Positions 259 to 64,000 of a stretch of DNA of 64,000 nucleotides are shown here, one piece after another (the stretch's first letter is position 1; every line of letters begins with the position of its first letter). The notes below the pieces were generated by a model. It made no database searches. It was given only the letters and a program-made list of their open reading frames with translations, and was not told the origin of the DNA. The position numbers were made by a program, and so were the translations under genes. Location: assembly GCA_000004985.1 (NCBI GenBank), contig GG738878.1. One strand, given 5' to 3'. This DNA comes from Naegleria gruberi. Taxonomy: Eukaryota.

Positions 259-3200
259 TTATTTGTGGTCTAACTTTTGTTTCATCATATCAATGAGCAT
301 ATCAGAGTATTTCTCCAAAATATCCTTCGTTGAAGCTGCATTAATTTGCCAAGCTTTAGAAGAAAATGTAGCAGACATATTCTGCAGCAGTTTTGCAATA
401 GCTTCTTTTGATTTGTTGATGGCTTCTACGTCCTTATTTTCTGAGTTATCCATATGGTCAATTATTGAGAGAGCATGAGTAAAAGAATGGGAAATTTGGT
501 TGAGTTTAAGTACAAGGGTTAGTGGAATATCAGACATGTTTGGAATACTTTCAGTGAGATTAATTCTAGATGTGGTCAAATCGTTAGATGGTAATGTTGG
601 TTGATTTGATGAGGCAGTAGTTGTGGTAGTTGTAGGGATTGAATGGTTATTGATTGTGGTGGAAGATGATGCTGTTGAGGAACTTTGGGTAGATGAAGGT
701 TGGAGAGGTGGAAGATGATTGGTTTTTGGGAGTGGTTTTGGAGGCTGCTTTGATGGTTGACCAATGGCCTTTTTCAAAAATTGTGAGGTGACACTAATTC
801 TTCCATCACCCAAAGGTGCTTCGAAAGGAGCAGAAAGACTTTCAAAATTCTTCATTAAGAAATCCTCTTGTACCTTTGGTTTTTCAGGAGGTTCCATTTC
901 AAGCTTAATTACTGCAGTCTTTTCATCTTCATCATCTGACTCTTGTACGAGCTTGTCTTGAGATACCTTGTTGGCTGCCCTCACTAGGAAATCTGGAGAT
1001 TGTTCAGTATTGAAATAGACTACATCTTCCTCTACTGGATCGTCTGCTTCGTCATTAGAACTTGTTTCATCCTCTATAGCAGCTAATTTAAATTCTTTCT
1101 CATCTGCTCTATCTAACCATTTACTATTCTGAGGCTTTGATTCTACAGAGTTTAGGATTGCATTGATTTCATCACTTGTTTTGGTTTTCTTTTGTTTTGC
1201 CCATAATGGTAGTAATGTATCACGTGTTGATAACTCGACAGTGTGTTGAGGACTTTCAGGCATGAGATTTTTTGGTAATATGCTTTCGAATGGCTTATTC
1301 TTATTCAAAAGTTTGGTAATGTTAGGGGAGAGTCTCCACACAAAAATACATCCATCCCCTGATACTGAGATGATTCTTTTAGAGTCTTTGGAAAATTTTA
1401 CACCAGTTATGATTTCTGAATGACCACATACTCTCGATAAGCATTCACCTGTCTGCAAGTTGTAAAGCCTGATATATTTATCAGCAGAGCTGATAACAGC
1501 AAACTCTCCAGAATAGTCGCAACAAACTCTGATAGGTTCAGCTGATGGAAGATAGCTGTCAGCGGTTGATCTAGTGTCAACCTTAAAGCTTTGTTTAGAT
1601 TTGCACTTGTCTAACTCCCAAACACTAATCTTCTTATCCTGTCCAACTGATACAATTTCGTTTGTCTTGCTTACATCCAAATCAAAAATGGTTCCATTCG
1701 ATTGACTATTTTGATATCTTCTGAAAGTATATTCACCATTTGGATCTCTTTCAATCTTTCTAAATACAATAGATTTATCAGCACTGCAGCTGATAAGATA
1801 TCTGAAATTTTCATCCTTTGTAAATCTCACAGAAGTAACAGATGCCGTATGATCATCAAGGGAGGTTACCAATTTGAATAAGGAATTCTTGTATTGGAAA
1901 ATGTGAATAAGTCTATCTCTGCTACTTGTAGCAAATAGGATATCTGTAGAATCTTCAGGGTTCACACTAAAATCCATAGATAAAATTTCAGAGTCGTGAG
2001 CTACTTCAGAATATTCAATGGAAAAGTTTGTTGTTTGAAATATTTTGAGAACACCTTGTCTACTTCCGCAACCTATAAGATTACCATCCTCAGAAAACCT
2101 CACACTTCTTATTCCTTGTTCTCCATTAGGATTTGAAGGTTTATCCTCAATTGCGTGTAGCAAGTCCTTACAGAAAACATTTTTAGAAATGAAAGACTCT
2201 CCTCTTTCAATCTTTTCAGTGAGAGAAGTACTAGCTTCCACATTCCAAACTCTAACAGTATTATCACTCGAACAAGTAACAAATGATCCATGAGGTAAAA
2301 GTGAATTATTTTCAGGAAATAGATCAATATCCCAAATAGAATCACTGTGAGAAAGGAAACTTCTGTACTTGGCTATTCTTTGCAAATTACTAATGTCCCA
2401 AATAAAGAAGGATCTGTCACTGTAGACTGCACATACCTGTCGTGAATCAAGAAGTCTGCAAGCCACACAATTAATATCGTTTGAGTAGGACATTCCAGTG
2501 GTTAGTGGTGGTTTTGGTAATGTGCATTTGAATTTAAGGCTGGTTGGCTCAAACAGACGAACTGTTCCATTTGCACATCCACAACAAATAATATCTTCAT
2601 TGACACTAAGCGAGAATGCTGCTTTAACTTTCATATCCAGCCATTTAAGAATCTGTCTATTTTCGTTTAGTAAACACAAAATTCCATCCGAATTAACTGT
2701 ATACACCCCAGTTGACCCATCCTTGTGTTTCACTATATCAACACTAACAAAATTAGATTCCTTAAAATTCCCCAGAATACACCTAGATGTTTTTACCTCC
2801 ATACTACCATTTGGTTGTTGTTCAATTTGATGATATTTTACAAACTTGTCTCCAACTGTTACAAAAAATGCTCCATCATGTGAAAATGCAACATCATTGG
2901 TCTTTGGAATATCAGTAAATCTAATTATTCGAATTGAATACTTACCTTTCTAATATTTTTGATAGTATGTACAAGACTTCCTTTTTGAGAAGAAGCAGAA
3001 GATAATGTTGAAGCGTTAACACTTTGATTCATATTGGCAGAGAGATCCCACAACTTGATGGTACCATCATTTTCATCCCCAACACTGACAATATATTTTG
3101 CATCATTTGAAAATGCTAAAGAAGTAATTCCATATGAATGATTATCTTTCTTGAGCTCTATAGTTTTCTTTCCTGTTAAAACATCCCATATTACAATAGA

Positions 3201-3593
3201 TGGTTTTGATCCTTTTTCACCTGCTGCCAATAGTTTCCCATTCCTACTGAATTGAAGACAAGAGAAGGTTTTGTTTGATGATGAATTTTGTAAGAATTGA
3301 TATTGTTTGTTCTTTCTTGGATTGTAGCAAACTACCACATTTGCCGAACAATAGGCAACATATTTTGTTTGTGGATGAACTGAAAGCTTTGAATTAGAGT
3401 CGGTTGTTAAACCAATAATTTTTTCCAAAGTTATTCTAGAGCCACCCGATTGTGATGGTTGTGAATTTGATGATGCAGCTACACTTTGTTTTCGCTTCTT
3501 TGATGATTGACTAATGGATCCGCTACCACTTTGTGTGATCGTTCGTTTCAGAGAGGTTGGAGTGGCAGAAGGATGCGGTTGAGGACCAATCAT
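259..3593 (-). CDS. WD40 scaffold protein, MAPKBP1/WDR62-like (two exons: 2946..3593 and 259..2901; ~44-nt intron 2902..2945)
   Basis: The 222-aa and 847-aa minus ORFs are collinear with the MAPKBP1/WDR62 N-terminal WD40 region. Matching stretches include VVCYNPRKNKQYQFLQNSS..PSIVIWDV..KYIVSVGDEN, VTVGDKFVKYHQIE and IICCGCANGTVRLFEPTSLKF. Donor AAG|GTAAGT lies at 2945 on the minus strand, the acceptor is ..CCAAAG|ACC, and the frame is preserved (..NIRK|TNDVAFSHDGAFFVTVGDKF..). The C-terminal half is S/T/P-rich low complexity. Confidence 0.8.
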
Positions 3594-3821
3594 GATTTTT
3601 TTTAAAGTTGTTTTTTATTTAAATTTTGGCGCCAACTTTTTTAACGAATGGATTGCATTCAAAATTGTTGAAAATATCAAGTTCTGCATTTAGCATAGGA
3701 GATTGGAATTCAAACCAGCACCATTCGAATGAAAACTTTTTAATTGGAAATATTTCACAATTTGTTTAAAAAATATTAAATTACAAATAAGAATAATAAA
3801 AAAATATTATATTGAAATAGA

Positions 3822-4829
3822 TTACATGTTAGTTGATTGATAAGATTTGTTATCCTTCTTTCTTTCTTCCAAAAGACATTCAACATAGGCCTGAAGAGTA
3901 CGAGAAATATCTCTACCATGTGGAGTAGCAAATTGGAACTTTTGTTTGGACAAGACTCCTGAAACGAAAGCAAAAGCATTTCTCTTATAGGCCCATGAAT
4001 AGATATCTGAATAACGTTGAGTAAGAATTGGTTCCTTGGTTCCTAACTTTAACAATTGAATTCCATTAGAATTGACTGCAAGAATAACTTGATCAGGTAA
4101 ATTTGCTTGATCCTTATTAACAGTTTGTACAGTCCAGAAAGTACTTCCATAAAAACTCCAATTACGAACATAATTCAAGTAGTGCAACATGGCATCTTCC
4201 TTCTTTAAACCAATCAAACGAGCATGTTCTTGGAAGACATCCTTTTCCCAATCTTCTAATTTACGATTTGATTGAAGGAGAGGAGCAGGAATAAAACGAC
4301 CAATCTTATCCTTCAAAAAACCTTGAATGTGTTTCTTCTTATTGTGATCACCAAAAGTAACTTGCATATTAAGACCAGCTAATTCAATAGCAGCCGATTG
4401 ACTACATGGATAAGTACCATCTCGAACATCAGCAACAGCTTGAATAAAACTATAATTCAAAAACTTTTCTTGTTCACGTGGAATTGCCTTGTGCTTTAAA
4501 AAGACTCTTCTCTTGAATACTAATTTAGAGTCCTTCTCCCAGTCTTTCTTTAATTTTTCCCATTCTTGTTTATCATTCACATACTTTTGAAAGTCTGCAT
4601 CAGAACCAACAGTTTCATAGACCATCAATTTGCACGGTTGTTCATCATCATCTAAACATCTACACTCTCCGTTCTTGTAGAAAAAGAGCGCAAAAGTTTC
4701 ACGTTGTTCCAATTCAATCTTATCAGCGACAACAATTGATAAATCACGAGCACTGATGGTTGGACTAACGGCAATGGTTTTGAAGGAATCATCTACAAAG
4801 TAGACACGAATAACTAATTTAGAATCCAT
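3822..4829 (-). CDS. FERM-domain protein (ubiquitin-like F1, acyl-CoA-binding-like F2, PTB-like F3)
   Basis: 335-aa single ORF. The ubiquitin-like start is MDSKLVIRVYFVDDSFKTIAVSPTISARDL. The F2 lobe is ..AMLHYLNYVRNWSFYGSTFW... The F3 lobe is ..QRYSDIYSWAYKRNAFAFVSGVLSKQKFQFATPHGRDI... An AT-rich 5' flank follows the ATG. Confidence 0.65.
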   Translation of the reverse strand: MDSKLVIRVYFVDDSFKTIAVSPTISARDLSIVVADKIELEQRETFALFFYKNGECRCLDDDEQPCKLMVYETVGSDADFQKYVNDKQEWEKLKKDWEKDSKLVFKRRVFLKHKAIPREQEKFLNYSFIQAVADVRDGTYPCSQSAAIELAGLNMQVTFGDHNKKKHIQGFLKDKIGRFIPAPLLQSNRKLEDWEKDVFQEHARLIGLKKEDAMLHYLNYVRNWSFYGSTFWTVQTVNKDQANLPDQVILAVNSNGIQLLKLGTKEPILTQRYSDIYSWAYKRNAFAFVSGVLSKQKFQFATPHGRDISRTLQAYVECLLEERKKDNKSYQSTNM

Positions 4830-15144: not shown

Positions 15145-15549
15145 TTTTTTTATTGTAGATTTTTTAATTGGGTTGTCCTGTTGTAATGCAAAGATATTAG
15201 AGAATCTCATTATCTCAATATTAATACGCACGCTAGCACATAAAATAATTCTCCCAATGGTACCGATTTACCAATCATGTTAAAAAGTGCGACAGTATAA
15301 AATCAATAACTTTCAATATTTTGTAAACTTTCCACCTTGTTCCATAAGCATTGATCATTTACTGTATTGTAAAAAATCAAAATAATTTTCAAATTTGATC
15401 AAAATAAACGAAGAGGAACCAGAAACCTTCCAATTCCATTCAATTTCAATTCTTAAAAAAATCAAAAAAACGAATTAAGGGATCAATTCTCCGCAAGCTT
15501 TGAATCATCAAATACTTATTTATTAAGGAAAAATTATGATTGCAATAAT

Positions 15550-16957
15550 ATGAGTCCAACAAATTCGATATACCAGCAGAAGTGGAGAGTCTCATCACAA
15601 TTATGTATCATGATGATGATGATGGTAATTTTCTGTTGCACTAGATTGGAATATATTAAAGCCAATACTCCAATAATTCGATATTTAAATTTTGATACCT
15701 ATTATACGATGGATTCAAATTCAACTCTTCAATATGGTTTCAAGGTTGGGAAAGATCAAGAGAATTTAAGAGTGGCTGAGGGTTGTGAAATACTGCTTTC
15801 CTTTCGCTCGTTAAATGAAGAATCGAATTTAATTAACATGTCTTTGAGTAGTCTTCCATCTGAATTGTTCAGCAAGTATTATCCATCTACTATGGCAGAA
15901 ATTTATTCGATACAATTTGATGCCAGTAGCTTGCAATATCTCAATAACACCTCTATGGAATTCAAGCACCACTGCCCGAACGGAATTGCAAACGCAAGGT
16001 TAGGAACCTTATCTGCATATACATTTACAAATGATCGTTTTTTAGCCACCAGTGCGCAGCATGGACCTGTAGAAACAACCTTATTAAGATTTCCAATGAT
16101 TTCATTAAGATTATTTGGTGATAGGCTGATTATTGGCATTCACTTGTCATTCATCTTGAGATCCACTGTATTGAATCAGCAGAAATATATCTATGGTCCA
16201 ACAGAACTAGAATTTAACCTCCAACTTTATCACAAATTGGTTCTTAACATGCCATCCATTGCTTCAACAGTTGTGGGGACAGTTTTCACAGTTAAAGAAA
16301 CAAAAAAGGAATCACAAGCGTTTACTCCAGAAGGCTACTCTACTCTCTTTTCACTTGGATTGGTTGGTGGAGAAACCTCAAAGGCAACATTGAGGTATAC
16401 ATTCAGTTCTCTGGTAATACTTGATGCTCTGGGATCATATGTAATGTTTAAACCAAGGTACTCTAATCAGCTATGGACATTTCTTAGATACTCTTCCTTA
16501 TCCTGGAGAAAAAGTATTTCGTGTCAAAATGCCAGCCATTTCGACTGTGAGAATTAAAAACATTGCTGCAACCTATGGATCTTTCACAGTAAGGTTAAAG
16601 AGAATGAGTCCACCTACATCTTATTCGTATGAACAATCAGAGTTCATAACAGCCAATATTGCAACAGCAACCAATTTTGAAATTTTGAATCTTGACTATG
16701 TGGAAACAAATCTCTTCATTTCCCTTGATCCAAACACTCATTCATTTTTTGGATTCGATATTGAAGTGCAGAGAAATGTGGTTGGACAGTTTGCGTTTGT
16801 GGTTTTAGGGGTAATACCTATTTTGTTCACTTTGTTCATAAGTGTTGCAATTATTATTGTGCTTGTTACAATTAAGCGAAATTCTTCAACTTACCGTTAT
16901 AAAGAAAGTGAACTCTTACAAAATAATGAAATGGACTCAATAAATAGAGATTTATAA
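15550..16957 (+). CDS. type-I-like membrane glycoprotein, unknown family (two overlapping ORFs 15550..16557 and 16529..16957; frame junction unresolved)
   Basis: The N-terminal hydrophobic region is MMMMVIFCCTRL. The ~430-aa ectodomain has N-glycosylation sequons. The second ORF ends with a transmembrane segment VVLGVIPILFTLFISVAIIIVLV plus a short tail. The two ORFs overlap in different frames around 16483-16557, and no convincing intron was found there. The cause is a frameshift or an unrecognised splice. Confidence 0.4.
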
Positions 16958-19800: not shown

Positions 19801-20705
19801 TGTTGGCCTTTATCATAATTAGTCAAGCTGCAGTCTATTTGGGATTACTCTTCCTCGTGTTGTGTGTTGCTACGGGATTGTACTATTTGGCAGAGTTGGC
19901 TGAAGAAAATACTGTCATGACTAAGAGAGTTATTTCCTATACGATCTATGTAGGTTGATGATGAGTTAGCCTTGGAGCATAGAACAATTATTAATCATGA
20001 TGATGAAAATTATCGGAATGAATTTGGAAATTAATGGAAAATAGCTTGTTGTTGCTTTACATTTAATTTTGTGGATTTTTGATGAATTGTATTTCAAGTA
20101 TATTTTCATCGGAATTGTTTCTCATATTATTTATTATCAATTGCTTTCTACATTCCCATTCATTAGGGTGAAATCTCTCTCTTTTGTGTTGAGCATTGGT
20201 AAGTTTTGGATTAATGATTTTAATTATATATTTAATAATTATTATTCAGTTGCTTTCTGTATTTCACATGTTGGATGGTATTATTACTTTACTGATTTTT
20301 ACACACCAATTTATGATTTTTCTGAATTGCTAGGTAAGTAGAGTTTGATAATATTTCTGATGAGCCTGACACTTCTTGTTTTAATTTAAAATAATAATAT
20401 TTTAATTTTTATTTTAATTCAATAATTATTAAATATTGAAATCTTTAGGATTTTTCTTCATTTGTGTCTGGATTACTCCATTGGCACTGTTTGTAAGTTT
20501 GAGTATTGGAGATGTTCAATTGCCTGGACTTGGAATGAATGATGGAATTGATTCTGGAAATAGAGATATTTTGAAGAAGAAAAAGAACAATGTTGCTCAA
20601 TGGATTATGTCCTTCTTGAATCGTTTCAGAAAATCCCAAGAAACTGCTCTTCCACAACATCAACCATATATGAATGTCAACAATTCATATACACCATCAT
20701 ATTAA
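19801..20705 (+). CDS. TEX261/Svp26-like ER-Golgi cargo-receptor membrane protein; 4 exons approx 19801..19950, 20047..20199, 20248..20332, 20441..20705
   Basis: Exon 1 is MLAFIIISQAAVYLGLLFLVLCVATGLYYLAELAEENTVMTKRVISYTIY, followed by GTAGGT. Exon 2 is LVVALHLILWIFDELYFKYIFIGIVSHIIYYQLLSTFPFIRVKSLSFVLSIG. Exon 3 is VAFCISHVGWYYYFTDFYTPIYDFSELLG. Exon 4 is FFFICVWITPLALFVSLSIGDVQLP... The whole is collinear with TEX261 (GLYYLAELIEE....FPF...). Confidence 0.7.
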
Positions 20706-20864: not shown

Positions 20865-22347
20865 ATGCAGCAAAGAAATTCTTCATTCACCGTGGAAATA
20901 TTTCAACAAGAAGTTTTGGATTACCTATCGGAAAGTTTAATGTTGAAGGAAAAACATGGATCGGAAGAATCTAAAAATTTACTTGTTAATTCTCTGTTGA
21001 GACCTCCATCCATATCAACCATTCGAGTGAATACTTATCATTATAAAAAAGGTGGAAAATTCTCAAGTCATGATGAAATTATGGAACAAGCAAGGAAGGA
21101 TTTGGAAACAATTTTTCAAAACAAGTACAAGGTTGAGAGGAGTCCAAATGTTGATGATTGTTTGGTGATCCCTGTTAATGAACTCTCACCAAATTATTCA
21201 AATATTTCGGATCAATGTATGTAATCACTTATGTAATTAATTGGAATTTATTGAAAAAGATATTGTTGTGGATAGAAAATGTGGAGAAGCTGTACTGAGA
21301 GGAGCTGATGTATTTGCTCCAGGAATTTTGGGAATTTCAAAAAATTGTCATTCTGGATCTGAAATTGCAATTCTATGTGATATTTCTTCTCAAACAAAGA
21401 AGGGATTCAGATTTGAAAAAACCATTGAGGAAATGATACAAATTGATGAAAATACCAAGTACCAGAATTTCATCTATGTTGGAAATGGAATTTTGAAAAT
21501 GGACAGGACCAGTATTTTCCAAGCCAATGTAAAGGGAATTGGATTGGAGGTAACCCAACCATTCTATGAGACCTGCTCCTTGAATGAAATATCTCAAACA
21601 TATTACAATGAATTTTTCGCTCAAAATATTTGCTCCATGGTGGTAGCTCACCTTTTGGATCCAAAAAAGGGAGAAAAGATTTTGGATATGTGTGCATGTC
21701 CAGGTGGAAAAACTACACACATTTCAAATCTTATGGAGAATGAAGGTGAATTGATTTGTTGCGATAGACAGAAAGGAAAGGTTGACCTATTAAAGAAATT
21801 GAGTGAAAAACTTGGTTATTCAGTGATGAAACCAACAGTCCTTGATGGTACAAAGGCAACAAGAAGAGTTAACACTGATTCTTCTGAAAATCAAAAATCA
21901 AAAAAGAGAAAGACCAATGAAGAACAAGTATTTTTAGAGGAGAATTATTTTGATAGAGTATTGGTGGATGCACCATGTTCTGGACTTGGACAAAGACCTA
22001 CCCTCTCATTTAAGGAATTTTCATTGGATTCTCTCAAAAAGACAGCTGAATATCAACGAAAGATTTTGGCAGAGGCTTTCAAGGTTTTAAAACCTGGTGG
22101 TATTCTTGTCTTTTCCACATGTACCATCAGTCCAATGGAGAATGAAGAAAATGTTTTGTGGATGCTTGAAAATTTCCACTCTAAAATTGAGTTATTGACA
22201 CCCAACATGACAGCTTTTGCCAGTGAAGGTCTTTCATCCATTATTTCTGATTCTTCAATACGGAGTAAGGTCCTTCGATTTGATCCAGTAACAACTCCTG
22301 AAACTATTGGGTTCTTTGCTTGCAAATTCAAAAAACTTTCCAATTAA
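20865..22347 (+). CDS. NOL1/NOP2/Sun-family RNA (cytosine-5)-methyltransferase, NSUN6-like with PUA-like segment; exons 20865..21216 and 21260..22347
   Basis: The intron is GTATGT...AAAAAG (21217..21259, 43 nt), phase 1. The PUA-like stretch is IVVDRKCGEAVLRGADVFAPGILG. The SAM motif is DMCACPGGKTTH. The motif IV is DRVLVDAPCSGLGQRP. The catalytic TC is LVFSTCTISPMENE. Confidence 0.8.
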
Positions 22348-22554: not shown

Positions 22555-25500
22555 ATGGCAGCAATTCATCACACGCTTCCACTTTACAAATTGGTGACGA
22601 CGGGAAGGATAACAAGGATGAGTGGTTTTTTCATGATGATTTTAATGGTGGCCATTGCTGTTGTTGTTTTCATGAGAGTCGATGTGGTGCAGAGTAAAAG
22701 ATATGACCTGTCCCAACAATATGATCAGCAACAACTCACTGATGATTCCGAATTGTTTGTTAAAGTGTCGTCTGTGGATTATGAAAGATGGATGATGCAT
22801 CAACCTAATATCGAAAAGGTTTATAGACTTTCAAAGAGAATAAGGAGAGCCAAGGCAGAAATTGATTACAAAACAGAATACCTCTATGTTTTGGGTGAAG
22901 ATCACAATGGTGGTGCTTCTTTTTATATGGATGCGAGTGAGGAAATTATTCCAAAACATGCCAATATTTCAGTAGTATTTGATTATTTGGACGAAGCATT
23001 GGAATATGTCCATGAAAATAAGGATGATCCCTATTTACACAGATTTGTGGTTATTATGCAACAGGGTATTCACAAAGTGAAGGGTAATGAAGCAAGAATT
23101 TCTAGACCTTTCACTTCTATTGTTTCGGAGGACCCAAGATTTCCAGATAGAACCATTATCAGAGCCAATGATATCAATGGTCAGGTGCTTTTCATCGATT
23201 CAACTCATAACATTACAATTAAAGGTGTCACTCTGACTGGTGGGCACTTGGTAAATTTGAAGTTTTCTCACAAGAATGTTCCAAAACCTTGTGGTAGTGG
23301 TAGGTAGTTGACAAATTAATCCATACTGATAACAATTCTCTCAATTTATAGGTTTATTAATTTCTGCTTCAAGCAATATTTTGGTAGAATCTGTATTGTT
23401 ACAAGCAAATAAGGCTGCTATTGGTGGAAGTGTTTGCATTTACAACTCAACTGTTGTCAACTTCCACAAATGTTTCATTAAGAATAGTGTTTCATTCATT
23501 AGAAATATGCTTCTTACAGATAGCTTGAATGGTTTACAATTTTCTGAAGCTTCCAATTTCAATGTTAATAACAGTATTTTTGCTCAAAATTTACCAGCTT
23601 CTAATGATCCAGAAGGTATTTATGGTTGTGGTGGTGGTTTGGGAATATTCAACTCAAATCAAACCATATTTTCTTCATGTGTTTTTGCCAACAATACTGG
23701 TAGGTAATCTATCTTAATAATTTTACTTATTCTAAATTATCAATAGCAATTAACGGAGGAGCCATATTTACAGTTAATTCTTCATTCACTGTAACCAGTA
23801 GCAGAATTAGTGGAAATACAGCTTATAATCAAAGTAGTGGAATTTATAGTGATTGGAATAGTGAGGTTTCCATTGACAAGGTTTTCTTCTTGGAAAATAG
23901 ATGTGTTAGATTGACCTGTAAGATTATCTACTCACCAAAGAAGGAATATTTGGACGATATTTCAAGCTTTAGAGAAGTTGTTTTCCCTGCTATTTGTATT
24001 ACTGGAATTATTCTTTCCATTGGTTTGGGCTTTATTGGTTTATTCGAATTTATTAGAATGGTCAAGCAGAAAAAAAGATGGAGCAATGTAGTTTGGGGAG
24101 ACAAGATTTATTTGTGGCTTTTAGGTGCTTTGGGTATCTATAGGCCTTATGGATCTGTTCCAAGACCTTACAATTGGTTCCACAGAACCCTTATAGTACT
24201 CATTCTCGTTTTGAGTTGCATTCTTCAAGGAATGCAATCAGCTGCAGTTATGCCAGAAGTAAGTTTTCTTTTATTTCAAAATCTTAAACTGTGAAAAGTT
24301 TTTTGATCAAATGGATACTGTAAGATTCACAATCAGCGCTATTCAACAAGTAGTTTTCAATTTCATTCCTCTTGTATGTTATATTGCATTGATATTGGCT
24401 GTTAAGGCAAGCTACAAGAGATTGTTTGTCAACTACAAACCACCAATTCCAACAGAAGTTGAAGTTCAAGAAGAAAATGCTAGTCTCATTAACTTTTATC
24501 AAACTCAAATTGAAAAGGAAAATGAAAGTGTGAACACAGCATCTCCAGTATCTGATCTTTCTGAACAATCTTTTAGAAAAAAGAAGCGTAAGCATGCCTT
24601 TGATTGGAAGAAGGATACTCAAAAGACTGGTCTTCAAAGAAGTATCCATAATAGAAGAGCATTGGCAGGTGTTATTATTTCTGTATTGATTTTGGCATCC
24701 TCTTATGTTATTATTATTTTTGATACCATGTACTTTATTGATTCTAATATTGATATTGCAGCCACTACTAACCAACCTATTGGATTGGATACTATATCAA
24801 GTGCTATTTTCTACATGATGCATTGGCTTTTAAACATGTCAATTATGACCATGGTTTTGCTCACTGTATTCTTACTTTGTAACAGAATTAATTCTTATCA
24901 GAATACTTTCTTTGAAACATTATACCATCAGTTAGAGAGAGCTGTTTTCAATTTGCAAACTGGTGTCTACAGTTATGTTCACCTCAGAAAGGAATGGTAA
25001 GTATAGTATTTCATTTAATTTTCCAACCTATCTGATAGCAAACGTTTGGTGAGATATTCTTGGATTTTAACAATTTCCTATATTATTATTTTCAGTGGAA
25101 TGTGTGTCAATCAAGTTTTAATGGTTTTGTGGGGAGGCTCAGAATTCAAATTCTTTATCTATTATGTAGCAGTTCTTGTTGTAATGCTTGTTCTCATTAC
25201 ACACGTCAGTTATACAAGTAATCACTGGACCAGTTTCAGATTTGATGACTTTTTAGCAGCAGTTCCTCACTCAATTACCTATGATTATGGTATTTTCTTT
25301 GTAAGTTTATTGTCATACACTTTTATTTAATATATAATTTTCATAATTATCAAAAGGTTCCTGGAGCTAATAAGAAACTTTCACTTCCAAAAACTGAAAT
25401 TAATGACAATCTCAGACTCAATGATGGTGCATTCCCAGCTGGAGAAAGCAAGGATAAAGCTGAGCAATTGTTGAGAGATTTAACCTTCTTCCATATGTAC

Positions 25501-31042: not shown

Positions 31043-32828
31043 TAGCAGGAATAACGAATGACAATGCTCTTGTTACAACTGATACTAATGATGGTACTGG
31101 GAATGTTGGGAATATTCCACCTCCTCCACCATTATCAAGTGTAGTTCCTGTTTATTTACCAGCGAATTTGATGAAACCAATAGAAGTAGTGCCACGCATA
31201 CCTACTAATGGGTCTTTTTCAGACTCATCTGAAAGTGATGATGATGAGGATTTGGGGTATCATCGTCCTATACAACCACCAATTGAGACTCCTATCAAAC
31301 CAAGAGTTTTTAAAGAACCAACTTATGACCAAATTAAACCAGTCATTGGAATACCAATTCCGAATGCAAATACAGATAGAACTAATGAAATTATGTCTGG
31401 ATGGATCACTAAATATAATTATGATAATGTTCCTCCAGAAGCATTGATGGAAATTTTCAAATTTGTAGATGTCAAAACCTTGTCAACGTAAGTTTTTAAA
31501 AACAACTACAATTTTGAAACATTTGAATAGTTGTTCCCTTGTTTCAAAGAATTGGCACTTTGCCACACTTCATGACGCCTTGTGGGAAGATTCAGTGAGG
31601 AAATTATTTGAAAGATTTAACAATCAAGAATCTGACTGTAAGTATATAGAAATACGTGTGTAGTATTTAAAAACAATAATATTTGGAATAATTTACAACC
31701 TTATAGACTATGCAATTGATTGTGGAAGAATGAATAAGAAGTATGGTACTCCAATTAAACCTCCTCCAAAAATTAAAAAGATTGAGGATTATGTAACAAT
31801 AGAGAATGGTAAAATTGTTTCCTATCACACTCTAAGAGCATTGAATATTGAACAAGGAAAGAAAAAACTCATTTCCAAATTGAAAAGAGACAGAAAGGAA
31901 TATTGGAGAACAAAGTTCCAAGAGAAGTATGACAATGCCTCTTCGTAAGTTTTTGGAAAACAAAGTTTTATTTACCTCTTTAAACAGACTCAAGTATAGA
32001 TACTTTTTTGGATTTTCCACACTTGTATACATTTCATTATTTATTTTCTTTTGTCTAGTTGCTGTCAATGATGCTATTCCAAAATCTGTAATTCCCAATT
32101 GGCATCTTTATAGCTTTATTCCTCTGTGGTTTTTCTTTTTATTTGGATTTGGAACTTTGTTCTTTGTATTTTTTATGTATACATCTGCGAGTAGAGATTG
32201 TGAGATACTAATACTGGGAGGTGTGATACTGTTGGTTGTTTTTGGTGGTTTGGCTTCTGCAATTTTATCATTTTTGAATGTGGCTGTTCTACCCGTGACG
32301 TATAATTATGATCGGTTTTCAGATCAGTATGTTATATCGTGGTTTATTGTACTCATTCCAGCTTATATATTTGCAGTAGTGATGTTTATTGCTCAGTTGG
32401 TTGCTGTAGGAATTGTATTGATTGAGGACTGGCTAAATCAAGCAACTGTCAAAAAGAAATGGAAGCATTTTGGAGTGGCAATGTTCTTTTCAACTATGAA
32501 CCTTTTAATGATTGCAGGTATTGGAATGGTAGGCATTTCTCTTGAATATCCTACATTCTTTCCAATATATTATCCAGCCATTCCAGCCATTATTGTAGTA
32601 TTAGGATTTATCGTTGTGGCTATTAAGGAATTGTGGAAAGATAGAAATAATCAATATTCAAGTGATAAGTACATTTTGAGTTTCGGTTTGGTATTTTTCA
32701 TAGCACTGGCTATTAACATTGTCATCATTGGCTTGTATCCATTCTTACTGAGCTACTCGTGGTTCTCTTCTCTCTTACCGCTCACAGCTGCGTATGCCTT
32801 TGTTTGTCGTGTGATATATGAAGGTTAA
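30808..32828 (+). CDS. F-box protein fused to a C-terminal multi-pass (7-8 TM) membrane domain; 4 exons ~30808(or 30966)..31487, 31531..31637, 31707..31944, 31988..32828
   Basis: The F-box spans intron A: PPEALMEIFKFVDVKTLS|TCSLVSKNWHFATLHDALWEDSV. The three introns are GTAAGT...AATAG (31488..31530), GTAAGT...TTATAG (31638..31706) and GTAAGT...AAACAG (31945..31987). The phases are 2, 1 and 2, and all are consistent. The last exon is the 31929..32828 ORF read in frame from LKYRYFFGFSTLVYISLFIFFCLVAV..., giving eight hydrophobic helices. Start codon is uncertain: Met codons at 30808, 30844, 30862, 30966 and 30978. Confidence 0.6.
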
Positions 32829-61912: not shown

Positions 61913-64000
61913 ATGAATCAACAACAACAACAACATTTTGTACATGCTGCTACTTCCTCCTTTTCTAATTATCCATCCCAACAACAACAACAATCACTAA
62001 TGCGAACTCCATCATATCAATACCAAAATATTCCATCATCAGATTTAAATCAAATACCAATTCAACATCAACACTACACTACTCAGAGTAATAACACTAA
62101 TAATATATATTCTAACAATAGTAATAACATAATACAACCAACAACAAATAATGTTTTTGATTATAACACTCCACCACTAAAATCACATTTACATTCTACA
62201 GGGGGATCCAATAATTCTTCATATTTTCAAAATTCTCAATACAATAATTTTGGTCAACCACAACAATCTATGCACAATTACCATCATTATGGAGGAACAA
62301 CTAGTTATAAATCACCAACACACAATAATTCATCAGGGTTTAGTGTTCATCCCTCTCAAGACTTGTCATTCAAACAACAAGAAACATTTTCCAAACACCT
62401 AAATAATAATCAATCTCCAAATGTTGTACACAATTACTATCCTACTGCAACTGTTACACCTCAAACTTCTAAAATTTCTCTTGATAATTCTCCTAAACAA
62501 CATAGTCAACCAACAAAGGCCTCCAACAGATTCAGTGACAACTTCCTATCAATCACCTTCAACCGCCTTTACTCCAACAGAACTATCGAAAACCAAATCA
62601 CCTTCCAAAACTCCAACAAACTCCACTGAATCCAATGAAGACTCTGCAAGTGAGGAAGAATCTACTAATTCACCAAATGCAAGAAGAGCAAAGAAATCCA
62701 CACGTGCTTGTGAAGCCTGTAGAAGACATCACCGTAAATGTGACGGAGGTAGTCCTTGTCAAACTTGTAGTGGGAAGGGGATTAGTTGTGTATATACCGA
62801 AAGAAAAAAGAGAGGTCCAAAGAATGAGGCAACCAAACTTTTAAAGAAAGAAATTGAGGAACTCAAAGAAAAGCTTATGGTGAGTGAAAGAATGAAATGT
62901 GAATGGGAACAAAAATGTAAAGAATTGGCCAAAATGGCAGGTATTTCGATAACACTGAACGATCAGAATATGCCTATGTTTAGTAATTTACAAAACGATC
63001 AAAATAGTAATACTATGGCCTTCTCCAATACTCAGCAAACAACCATGCAGAGTAATGATCAAAGTTATCCTATTATATTCGATAGCAGTGGAGCTGTTGA
63101 TAATTCAAATCCTCTTTCCACAATTCCAGTCTTCTCAATTTCACTCTCTAATGAAGAGGAAAATAATAAGAAACGAAAGAGCGTAGAGAATAATCTTGAA
63201 AATCTGAAAAAGCAAAAATTTGACACCACTAACAGTAGTACAGAAATTGAACATTTGGATTTGTCACAGAAAAATACAGATCCCATTCCAACGGATGGTC
63301 AGAGGTTTGCCCTCTCTACAATGGTTACTCGTTTCATTAATATTTGGGATAAATTTGTCCATCCATTCCATTCCTTACTCCCTCCAAAATGGCAATCAGC
63401 AATGCCAGATCTTCTCTATGATATCATTAGAAATGATGGTGTCAACTCTGAAAATACCTTCTTCATGTACAGTTTATTATGTAATTCTGCTCGTTCTCTA
63501 GGAGATATCATGCTAAGTAGAGATTTGCACCATAAAGCAATGACATTGTACCCTCTTCATATGAACAACCCAGATCCTCGTGTAGGGTTTGCCTTGGTGC
63601 TTCTCTCCTATTACTCAATGTCTGTTGGTAGTTTGAGAAAGGCAATTGCTTATTGTAAGGATGCTCTTCGTATCTCTGAGGTGTTAGACAAACCACAACT
63701 CAATCTTCAAATGAACGCCTTCCTCTCTATTGCATCCATTTCAGATGACTATGAAGAAAGAAAAGTGAACTTTAGGCGACTGGGACAAACTAAACAAATT
63801 TGTGATGTAATCATGTCTGTCACGGGTGAAGTTCAAAATGAAATTACACACGGTGGTAATACCAATTATAAGGAATTGATTGCACAAATGGCTGACTTGC
63901 TTCGTCTCAAGAATATGTCCTCTTCTAATGTTACCTTAATGCATGAAATTGCCATTTATGGTATTTTAATATTGTGTCTTCATAAGGCAGGATACAGAGA
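61913..64000 (+). CDS. Zn(II)2Cys6 binuclear-cluster (Gal4-type) transcription factor with Q/N-rich N-terminus, coiled-coil linker and fungal-TF-like middle-homology region; partial (runs off the 3' window edge); frame change near 62505-62530
   Basis: The zinc cluster at 62703-62790 is RACEACRRHHRKCDGGSPCQTCSGKGISCVY, with spacing C-x2-C-x6-C-x5-C-x2-C-x6-C. It is followed by the basic linker ERKKRGPK and the coiled coil LLKKEIEELKEKLMVSERMKCEWEQKCKEL. The same frame then stays open to position 64000 (..FALSTMVTRFINIWDKFVHPFHSLLPPKWQ..). The upstream poly-Q/N ORF (61913..62629) is in another frame; see findings. Confidence 0.7.

What the first reader, a model, noticed from the sequence alone, without database searches (positions are those of the whole stretch)
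62400..62800. Gal4-type Zn2Cys6 zinc cluster in a non-fungal-looking genome, with a frameshift or 25-nt intron candidate upstream of it
A textbook Zn2Cys6 motif (C-x2-C-x6-C-x5-C-x2-C-x6-C) is followed by a dimerisation coiled coil and a fungal-type middle homology region. The domain is overwhelmingly fungal, although it occurs sporadically in amoebae. The poly-Q/N N-terminal ORF (to 62629) and the zinc-cluster frame overlap out of phase. Removing the 25-nt segment GTCAACCAACAAAGGCCTCCAACAG (62504..62528) would join them in frame as ..SPKQH|N|SVTTSYQSP.. This segment starts with GT and ends with AG. A 25-nt intron would be far shorter than the 43-100 nt introns elsewhere in the window, so a 1-nt indel is the main alternative.
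Basis: partly seen in the sequence, partly recalled or inferred. Interest (0 to 1): 0.5.

Follow-up and report, generated by a model that had tools for sequence, protein, structure and literature searches.

The report
Naegleria zinc-cluster gene, probable one-base frameshift
This is an already catalogued Gal4-type zinc-cluster transcription factor gene of the amoeba Naegleria gruberi, where such genes are the commonest transcription factors; its two reading frames are most likely split by a single-base insertion in the assembled sequence, not by a 25-base intron.

Summary

A zinc cluster here is not surprising. A published census counts Zn_clus as the largest transcription factor family in Naegleria (78 genes in N. 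gruberi).

The out-of-phase ORFs are real. The 25-nt GT..AG segment exists at 62505-62529, one base off the stated coordinates, but does not look like an intron:
- Its donor is GTCAAC; 11 window introns all have GTAAGT or GTATGT.
- It is 52% GC against 16-26%, and 25 nt against 40-115 nt.
- 231 GT/GC..AG pairs would restore the frame, so one is expected by chance.

The database model bridges the frames with a 163-nt "intron" (62343-62505). That also looks spurious, because it is open and coding-like in frame 2. Codon usage puts the frame switch at about 62518-62527 (AAAGGCCTCC). Two orthologues are single uninterrupted ORFs.

Best reading: one intronless gene with a 1-nt indel, either an assembly error or a real allele. 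Low interest.

The parts
61913..62520 (+). N-terminal Q/N/S/T-rich, predicted disordered coding region (frame 2: codon first bases at coordinates equal to 2 mod 3). It starts at the first ATG after an in-frame stop. The end point is approximate because it is the inferred frame break.
   Evidence: ORF 61913-62629. Codon usage favours frame 2 in every 60-nt window up to 62483-62542. AlphaFold pLDDT is below 50 for residues 1-187 and 189-208. Orthologues carry 299-395 aa low-complexity N-termini in frame with the zinc cluster.
62343..62505 (+). The 163-nt 'intron' used by the database model XP_002675356.1 / NAEGRDRAFT_69430 to bridge the two frames (..SSGF|INQQRPP..). It is probably not an intron but coding sequence.
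   Evidence: Splicing it out reproduces P0001 exactly. The donor GTGTTCAT scores -2.6 bits, at the 60th percentile of exonic decoy GTs. It has no stop in frame 2 over 54 codons (P about 0.017, or 0.005 at intron-like composition), and its GC is 32.5% against 16-26% in real introns. Frame-2 codon scores are +5 to +8 inside it.
62505..62529 (+). It is a chance GT-AG pair inside coding sequence, not an intron.
   Evidence: Coordinates corrected by one base. Donor score is -5.5 bits, GC is 52%, and the length is below the 40-115 nt range. It is one of 231 frame-restoring pairs.
62518..62527 (+). Most likely position of the frame change from frame 2 to frame 0, that is one surplus base, within AAAGGCCTCC.
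   Evidence: A likelihood change-point scan with codon tables trained on 20 long ORFs of the window peaks at 62521. Positions 62518-62527 lie within 2 log units of the peak. Only 2-3 nt homopolymers are present here.
62521..64000 (+). Frame-0 coding region (codon first bases at coordinates equal to 0 mod 3) that carries the DNA-binding and regulatory domains. It runs off the window end; the annotated protein continues for about 100 more residues.
   Evidence: 100% identity to P0001 over 490 aa. Frame-0 codon scores are positive from 62513 onward.
62709..62789 (+). Zn2Cys6 binuclear cluster, first to sixth cysteine. Basic residues precede it (RRAKKSTRA) and the motif ERKKRGPK follows it.
   Evidence: Regex location. 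PF00172 at E=1.3e-9. A family profile matches the DNA-binding domains of Gal4, Put3, Lac9, Pho7, Leu3, Hap1, Ppr1 and Cep3 in the PDB. pLDDT is 82-89.
62823..62942 (+). Long amphipathic helix directly after the cluster. It is the presumed dimerisation coiled coil.
   Evidence: AlphaFold helix at residues 251-287. The profile alignment extends through the Gal4 6-90 and Put3 2-61 linker and coiled-coil region. The helix is conserved in the heterolobosean relatives.
63303..64000 (+). Start of the roughly 320-aa all-helical C-terminal domain, with the motif FVHPFHSLLP at 63360-63383. It is a divergent relative of the fungal middle homology region and continues beyond the window.

Best explanation
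The locus is one intronless Naegleria gruberi gene, annotated as NAEGRDRAFT_69430 / XP_002675356.1. It encodes a zinc-cluster transcription factor of about 800 aa with this layout:
- a disordered Q/N/S-rich N-terminal region of about 260 aa;
- a Gal4-type Zn2Cys6 DNA-binding cluster;
- a coiled-coil helix;
- a disordered linker;
- a helical C-terminal regulatory domain distantly related to the fungal middle homology region.

The two reading frames are separated by one surplus base in the assembled sequence, at about 62518-62527 (AAAGGCCTCC). This is either a base-calling or assembly error, or a real single-base insertion in the sequenced allele.

Inferred mechanism of the protein, by analogy with Gal4 and Put3 and not shown here: two zinc ions are held by the six cysteines. 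The protein dimerises through the helix and binds paired CGG-type half-sites. The C-terminal domain regulates activity, and the low-complexity N-terminus may act as an activation or condensation region.
For: Identity and domains:
- Identity to the annotated N. gruberi protein.
- Domain evidence.

One gene:
- The N-terminal ORF is far longer than chance allows and has no other plausible continuation.
- The frame-0 ORF has no credible start. Its only ATG upstream of the cluster (62421) gives MLYTITILLQLLHLKLLKFLLIILL..., which is an out-of-frame reading.
- The orthologues in Willaertia magna (990 aa, L002 1501-4473) and on an environmental contig (855 aa, L001 458-3025) are single uninterrupted ORFs with 299-395 aa N-termini.
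- The N. fowleri orthologue has its DNA-binding domain at residue 365-367.

No intron:
- All 11 introns recognised in the window are 40-115 nt, 16-26% GC, and start GTAAGT or GTATGT. Three are validated by Pfam domain continuity across the junction.
- The candidate donors score -5.5 bits (25-nt segment) and -2.6 bits (163-nt segment), against +5.2 to +12.2 bits for the real introns. That is no better than random exonic GTs.
- None of the 231 frame-restoring GT/GC-AG pairs has a consensus donor.

Position of the break:
- Codon usage is clearly frame 2 through the annotated 'intron' and switches to frame 0 at 62518-62527.
- Frame-0 'STAFTPTELSKTKSP' (from 62559) resembles the orthologue's 'TPTFTPTSERYKKSP', and frame-2 'KISLDNS' (to about 62490) resembles its 'RISLSQS'.
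Against: - No reads, traces or cDNA could be examined, so the indel is inferred by exclusion.
- The region has only 2-3 nt homopolymers, so it is not an obvious error hotspot.
- The donor consensus was used to pick the reference introns. The donor-score comparison is therefore partly circular, and only three introns are independently validated.
- The N-terminal region is low-complexity, and the alignment to orthologues near the junction is weak.
- I cannot tell a sequencing error from a true insertion in the strain.
- I do not know whether the JGI model had EST support.
Confidence: 0.6

Rival explanations
1. The database gene model is right. A 163-nt GT..AG intron (62343-62505) is spliced out and gives the 743-aa protein XP_002675356.1.
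For: It is the deposited annotation and it restores the frame. Its length is near the published mean intron length for N. gruberi, 203 bp (PMC8296547). GT and AG are present.
Against: - The donor GTGTTC scores -2.6 bits, at the 60th percentile of exonic decoy GTs.
- The segment has no stop in the upstream exon's frame over 54 codons (P about 0.005-0.017). By contrast, each of the 11 real introns has a stop in at least two of its three frames.
- Its GC is 32.5% against 16-26% in real introns.
- Frame-2 codon scores inside it are among the highest in the gene.
- It would remove 'SPNVVHNYYPTATVTPQTSKISLDNS', which loosely matches the orthologue.
- Two orthologues have no intron in this gene.
Confidence: 0.1
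2. One reading: an ultrashort spliceosomal intron is removed. It would be 25 nt (62505-62529), or the 31-nt variant 62505-62535.
For: It has GT..AG ends and its length is 3n+1. The junction gives a plausible S/T-rich sequence. It sits exactly where codon usage changes frame.
Against: - The donor GTCAAC mismatches the window's invariant GTA[A/T]GT at positions +3, +5 and +6, and scores -5.5 bits.
- It is 52% GC against 16-26% in real introns.
- It is 15 nt shorter than the shortest intron seen here. It is also below the 30-bp minimum chosen for N. fowleri RNA-seq mapping 'based on an assessment of predicted genes' (PMC8296547).
- There is no credible branch site with normal spacing.
- 231 alternative pairs would also restore the frame.
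- Frame-2 codons 62504-62518 (SQPTK) add about 3 log units of coding signal that an intron would discard.
Confidence: 0.05
3. The frameshift is real and fixed in the strain. Either the gene is a young pseudogene, or the factor is translated from the internal ATG at 62421 without the Q/N-rich N-terminus.
For: The assembly is all we have, and it shows the shift. ATG 62421 is in frame with the zinc cluster. Zinc-cluster genes are numerous (78), so some redundancy and gene decay is plausible.
Against: - Both halves keep long intact ORFs with strong coding-type codon usage. Any inactivation would therefore have to be very recent.
- A start at 62421 gives 35 hydrophobic residues (MLYTITILLQLLHLKLLKFLLIILL) that are an out-of-frame artefact. 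They are absent from all orthologues.
- The orthologues keep the N-terminal region in frame.
Confidence: 0.17
4. Programmed +1 ribosomal frameshifting joins the two frames during translation.
For: The required shift is +1, and the two frames overlap by 224 nt with both open.
Against: - The shift zone 62490-62559 contains none of the known +1 signals, read directly from the sequence. There is no in-frame stop or rare-codon pause of the antizyme type (UCC-UGA), no Ty1/ABP140/EST3 motif (CUU-AGG-C), no Ty3 motif (GCG-AGU-U), and no Euplotes motif (AAA-UAA/UAG).
- Shifting at the frame-2 stop (62627) would retain the non-coding-like frame-2 stretch and lose the orthologue-matching 'STAFTPTE'.
- The orthologues need no shift.
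- I know of no report of such frameshifting in Naegleria (own knowledge).
Confidence: 0.03

Closest known systems
XP_002675356.1 / EFC42612.1 / NAEGRDRAFT_69430 / UniProt D2VKK9 (Naegleria gruberi 'predicted protein')
   Same: It is this very gene. Identity is 100% over the 490 aa of frame 0 in the window, and the N-terminal 143 residues are the same.
   Different: The deposited model removes 62343-62505 as an intron. It therefore lacks about 54 residues that my analysis treats as coding. It reads INQQRPP in frame 0 where the true protein probably reads ..SQPTKA.. in frame 2 before the switch.
Fungal Gal4/Put3/Ppr1/Leu3/Hap1-type Zn(II)2Cys6 transcription factors
   Same: The six-cysteine spacing is the same, and the Pfam PF00172 match is above threshold. 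A family profile matches the solved Gal4, Put3, Lac9, Pho7, Leu3 and Hap1 DNA-binding domains, including the linker and coiled coil. The order of domains is the same: cluster, coiled coil, linker, large helical regulatory domain.
   Different: The host is a heterolobosean amoeba. A disordered region of about 260 aa precedes the cluster, whereas in most fungal members the cluster is N-terminal (own knowledge). The regulatory domain is too divergent for Pfam Fungal_trans. DNA target and dimerisation are untested.
Cep3 (CBF3 subunit B), the solved structure used here to represent a zinc-cluster protein with its middle-homology-type domain
Heterolobosean orthologues and paralogues: Willaertia magna KAL9655666.1, N. 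fowleri g2112/g7934, Acrasis kona KAL0483400.1 and KAL0486842.1, Percolomonas cosmopolitus A0A7S1KNL1
   Same: They share the architecture and the conserved C-domain motif F[VI]HPxH[ST]LLP. Identity is 47-56% for the orthologues and 23-36% for the more distant members.
   Different: The two orthologues whose DNA I could read are single continuous ORFs with no frame break. N. gruberi is the only one with the interruption.

Membership tests
Zn(II)2Cys6 binuclear cluster DNA-binding domain (Pfam PF00172) | Six cysteines spaced C-x2-C-x6-C-x5-12-C-x2-C-x6-8-C | tested here: met
   CEACRRHHRKCDGGSPCQTCSGKGISC at 62709-62789
Zn(II)2Cys6 binuclear cluster DNA-binding domain (Pfam PF00172) | Profile match above the curated gathering score | tested here: met
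   38.5-39 bits against a cutoff of 21, E about 1e-9. 9 of 14 family members match.
Zn(II)2Cys6 binuclear cluster DNA-binding domain (Pfam PF00172) | Linker plus dimerising coiled coil C-terminal to the cluster, as in Gal4 and Put3 | tested here: met
   A 37-residue helix at 251-287 in the AlphaFold model. The profile aligns to Gal4 6-90 and Put3 2-61. Dimerisation itself was not tested.
Zn(II)2Cys6 binuclear cluster DNA-binding domain (Pfam PF00172) | Binds two Zn(II) ions and CGG-type DNA half-sites | not testable with these tools
   Needs biochemistry, for example protein-binding microarray, EMSA or metal analysis.
Fungal-specific transcription factor domain / middle homology region (Pfam PF04082 Fungal_trans) | Match to the PF04082 profile | tested here: not met
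   No hit at E<=1 in the query or in any of 14 relatives. No hit at E<=10 for two Percolomonas members.
Fungal-specific transcription factor domain / middle homology region (Pfam PF04082 Fungal_trans) | Remote homology by profile-profile comparison to bona fide PF04082 domains | tested here: met
   hhalign of 9 heterolobosean C-domains against 5 PF04082-positive proteins gives probability 94.1%, E=1.3e-7, 116 columns. The match covers the 'F..vHP..P' start motif and the following helices. It covers only the first third of the domain.
Fungal-specific transcription factor domain / middle homology region (Pfam PF04082 Fungal_trans) | Fold like the Cep3 regulatory domain | tested here: inconclusive
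Naegleria U2-type spliceosomal intron (as a description of the 25-nt segment 62505-62529) | GT..AG termini and frame restoration | tested here: met
   However, 231 such pairs exist, so this is not discriminating.
Naegleria U2-type spliceosomal intron (as a description of the 25-nt segment 62505-62529) | 5' splice site GTA[A/T]GT | tested here: not met
   GTCAAC scores -5.5 bits against +5.2 to +12.2 for 11 window introns, at the 34th percentile of exonic GTs.
Naegleria U2-type spliceosomal intron (as a description of the 25-nt segment 62505-62529) | Length and base composition within the range of the genome's introns | tested here: not met
   25 nt against 40-115 nt, and 52% GC against 16-26%.
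Naegleria U2-type spliceosomal intron (as a description of the annotated 163-nt segment 62343-62505) | Consensus donor and non-coding character (stops in frame, AT-rich) | tested here: not met
   Donor score is -2.6 bits. There is no stop in frame 2 over 54 codons, and GC is 32.5%. Frame-2 coding scores are strongly positive.
Programmed +1 ribosomal frameshift site | A known shift-prone motif (antizyme UCC-UGA, Ty1 CUU-AGG-C, Ty3 GCG-AGU-U, Euplotes AAA-UAR) in the zone where the frame must change | tested here: not met
   None is present in the frame-2 codons of 62490-62559, read directly.

The most novel reading that the evidence does not exclude
The assembled sequence is correct and the cell still makes the full-length factor. 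It would do so either by removing an ultrashort non-consensus intron of 25-31 nt, well below the 40-115 nt range of the window's introns, or by programmed +1 ribosomal frameshifting in the AAAGGCCTCC region. Expression of a zinc-cluster factor would then depend on a recoding or mini-splicing event not described in Heterolobosea.
Probability: 0.06. Interest if true: 0.55.

Novelty: already known. Interest (0 to 1): 0.1.

Why it matters
It matters only in small ways.

- It corrects a database gene model. XP_002675356.1 probably lacks about 54 real residues and contains a spurious intron, because a gene predictor patched a single-base frame break with a GT-AG pair.
- It shows that a 'fungal' Zn2Cys6 domain in this genome is expected, not anomalous. 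It is the largest transcription factor family in Naegleria.
- This particular factor belongs to a conserved heterolobosean subfamily (Naegleria, Willaertia, Acrasis, Percolomonas). Its C-terminal domain is a divergent relative of the fungal middle homology region. This supports the view that the cluster-plus-regulatory-domain architecture predates, or has spread beyond, fungi.
- Were the frame break real and bypassed by the cell, it would be a first case of recoding or mini-intron splicing in this lineage. The evidence points away from that.

Tried and rejected
- Looked for independent transcript or genome copies of the junction. The exact look-up of the 238-aa ORF and of P0001 found no contig. 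The protein search with the C-terminal part found only the annotated protein and one environmental orthologue.
- A second protein search, with my reconstructed N-terminal 340 aa, returned nothing at all. It did not even return P0001, probably because of the low-complexity sequence, so it is uninformative.
- A scan of JGI metagenome contigs found no relative.
- DNA-level alignment to the orthologous contig works only across the zinc cluster, so it cannot place the indel.
- Global alignment of the N-terminal regions is too weak to choose between 'H-N-SVTT' (intron) and 'HSQPTKAPTDSVTT' (indel).
- The phage collection gave no match, as expected.
- The afdb50 fold library was unavailable.
- Considered a 46-nt candidate (62535-62580, GTGACA..AACAG), which has a typical length. 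Rejected because the donor scores -3.7 bits, GC is 46%, and it would delete the orthologue-matching STAFTPTE segment.
- Considered a 385-nt candidate with a GTAATA donor (62121-62505). Rejected because it removes 128 codons of strongly coding sequence.
- Literature searches for the locus tag and accessions found nothing.
Full report
WHAT IS THERE

The window has 34% GC. From 62529 to the window end, the frame-0 translation is 100% identical to a 743-aa 'predicted protein' of Naegleria gruberi. Its accessions are XP_002675356.1 / EFC42612.1 / NAEGRDRAFT_69430 / UniProt D2VKK9. The genome is therefore a heterolobosean amoeboflagellate, and the gene is already in the databases.

The six-cysteine motif CEACRRHHRKCDGGSPCQTCSGKGISC lies at 62709-62789. 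It matches Pfam Zn_clus (PF00172) at E=1.3e-9, above the curated cutoff. A profile built from the family finds the solved DNA-binding domains of Gal4, Put3, Lac9, Pho7, Leu3, Hap1, Ppr1 and Cep3. For Gal4 and Put3 the alignment runs on through the linker and coiled coil.

THE PROTEIN

I made an AlphaFold model from a 14-sequence family alignment. It shows:
- a disordered N-terminus (residues 1-208);
- a confident zinc cluster (pLDDT 82-89);
- a single 37-residue helix directly after it (251-287);
- a disordered linker (295-405);
- a very confident all-helical C-terminal domain (409-725, pLDDT mostly above 90).

Pfam's Fungal_trans model (PF04082) does not detect the C-terminal domain in this protein or in 13 relatives, nor in two further Percolomonas sequences, one of which is also among the 13 relatives. 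Two other tests do link it to the fungal middle homology region:
- Profile-profile comparison of the heterolobosean domain with five proteins that do carry PF04082 gives 94.1% probability and E=1.3e-7 over 116 columns. The match includes the characteristic 'F..vHP..P' start.

HOW UNUSUAL IS A ZINC CLUSTER HERE?

Not at all. The transcription factor census in Herman et al. 2021 (PMC8296547, Table S3) lists Zn_clus as the largest family in Naegleria. It counts 78 genes in N. gruberi and 56-58 in three N. fowleri strains.

An exhaustive HMMER search gave 21 proteins at E<1e-10. Those I traced come from Willaertia magna, Acrasis kona, Percolomonas cosmopolitus and uncultured material. They share the cluster, the helix and the C-domain motif F[VI]HPxH[ST]LLP. 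This is a conserved heterolobosean subfamily.

THE FRAME BREAK

The ATG ORF 61913-62629 (238 aa, Q/N/S-rich) and the frame-0 ORF open from 62403 overlap out of phase. The upstream ORF is far too long to be chance, with an expectation of about 9e-4 for the whole window.

The only ATG in frame 0 ahead of the cluster (62421) gives MLYTITILLQLLHLKLLKFLLIILL. That is simply the wrong-frame reading of a Q/N/S/T-rich coding sequence.

The orthologues keep a long low-complexity N-terminus in frame with the cluster:
- 299 aa on an environmental contig, where the gene is one ORF (L001 458-3025);
- 395 aa in Willaertia magna, where the gene is one uninterrupted 2973-nt ORF (L002 1501-4473);
- about 365 aa in N. 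fowleri.

So the two ORFs are one gene, and a +1 correction is needed somewhere.

WHERE IS THE BREAK?

I trained codon tables on 20 long ORFs of the window. Frame 2 is favoured in every 60-nt window up to 62483-62542, and frame 0 from 62513 onward. A change-point scan peaks at 62521, with 62518-62527 within two log units.

Orthologue similarity brackets the same zone. Frame-2 'KISLDNS' ends near 62490, and frame-0 'STAFTPTELSKTKSP' starts at 62559.

IS THE BRIDGE AN INTRON?

I recovered 11 introns in the window by asking which short GT..AG removals join adjacent ORFs. They are 40-115 nt and 16-26% GC, and every one starts GTAAGT or GTATGT. Three are independently validated, because a Pfam domain runs uninterrupted across the junction: a protein kinase domain and, twice, an ABC membrane domain.

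Against this background the two candidates look like this:
It has donor GTCAAC, which scores -5.5 bits (34th percentile of 692 exonic GTs), against +5.2 to +12.2 for the real introns in leave-one-out scoring. It is 52% GC and 15 nt shorter than the shortest intron.
- The database model bridges the frames differently, with a 163-nt GT..AG 'intron' at 62343-62505. Removing it reproduces the deposited protein exactly. Its donor GTGTTC scores -2.6 bits. It is open in frame 2 for all 54 codons (P about 0.005-0.017). Its GC is 32.5%, and it holds some of the strongest frame-2 coding signal in the gene.

In total 231 GT/GC..AG pairs would restore the frame without a stop, and none has a consensus donor. 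Finding one is expected by chance. A gene predictor that is forced to produce an open frame will always find one.

WHAT REMAINS

A single surplus base near 62518-62527 is the simplest account. I cannot tell whether it is an error of the draft assembly or a true insertion in one allele of the strain. No reads, traces or transcripts were reachable. The site has only 2-3-nt runs. That it includes a GGCC palindrome, a classic site of Sanger band compression, is my own speculation.

Programmed +1 frameshifting is not excluded, but it has no support. None of the known shift motifs is present in the zone, and the orthologues need no shift.

I put the probabilities at about:
- 0.6 for a 1-nt indel in an otherwise intact intronless gene;
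- 0.17 for a real, fixed frameshift (young pseudogene or internal start);
- 0.1 for the annotated intron;
- 0.05 for the mini-intron;
- 0.03 for ribosomal frameshifting.

VERDICT

The zinc-cluster identification is right, but it is ordinary for this organism and already annotated.

The only modestly useful by-products are a likely correction to the deposited gene model and the recognition of a heterolobosean subfamily whose regulatory domain is a divergent middle homology region.

Interest is low.

Noticed in passing
window 15457-16954 (+): This is a second pair of same-strand ORFs overlapping out of phase by 110 nt (15457..16554 and 16445..16954). Together they look like one secreted or type-I membrane protein: a hydrophobic N-terminus, then a C-terminal transmembrane segment FAFVVLGVIPILFTLFISVAIIIVLVTI. 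No GTAAGT/GTATGT intron joins them. A 43-nt GTGAGA..TTTCACAG candidate (16547-16589) would. It could be an intron with a variant donor, or another single-base frame break in the assembly.
   Followed up: partly
window, 11 introns: + 20334-20448, 21217-21259, 24259-24298, 24997-25038, 25301-25356, 31945-31987; - 58549-58482, 45077-45030, 18748-18705, 18386-18342, 2945-2902: The introns in this window are strikingly uniform. Nine of the eleven are 40-56 nt (the other two are 68 and 115 nt). They are 16-26% GC, with donor GTAAGT (9) or GTATGT (2), and a YTRAY-like element a few bases before the AG. The published mean of 203 bp for N. gruberi may be inflated by spurious long 'introns' like the one in this gene model.
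   Followed up: partly
L002 (Willaertia magna JBEGDK010000035.1) 1501-4473; L001 (ENA ERZ27315067 k141_1887279) 458-3025: The orthologues of this factor are single-exon genes. The environmental contig (40% GC, 56% protein identity) probably comes from an unsequenced Naegleria-like heterolobosean.
   Followed up: partly
protein family (P0001-P0015): The C-terminal domain carries a near-invariant motif F[VI]HPxH[ST]LLP followed by ..N.FF[LM]YSLL.NSA. It is shared by Naegleria, Willaertia, Acrasis and Percolomonas sequences. Pfam has no model that detects it, so this heterolobosean variant of the middle homology region is uncatalogued there.
   Followed up: partly
window 45436-42788 (-): This large gene has an N-terminal glycine-rich repeat (GGSGGHGGSGGSGGSGG...), and a 48-nt intron at 45077-45030 splits it. 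I did not examine its function.
   Followed up: no
tool behaviour: The word-indexed protein search with a 340-aa query returned no hit at all. More than 300 residues of that query are identical to P0001. This is presumably a low-complexity effect, so negative results from that tool on Q/N-rich queries should not be trusted.
   Followed up: no
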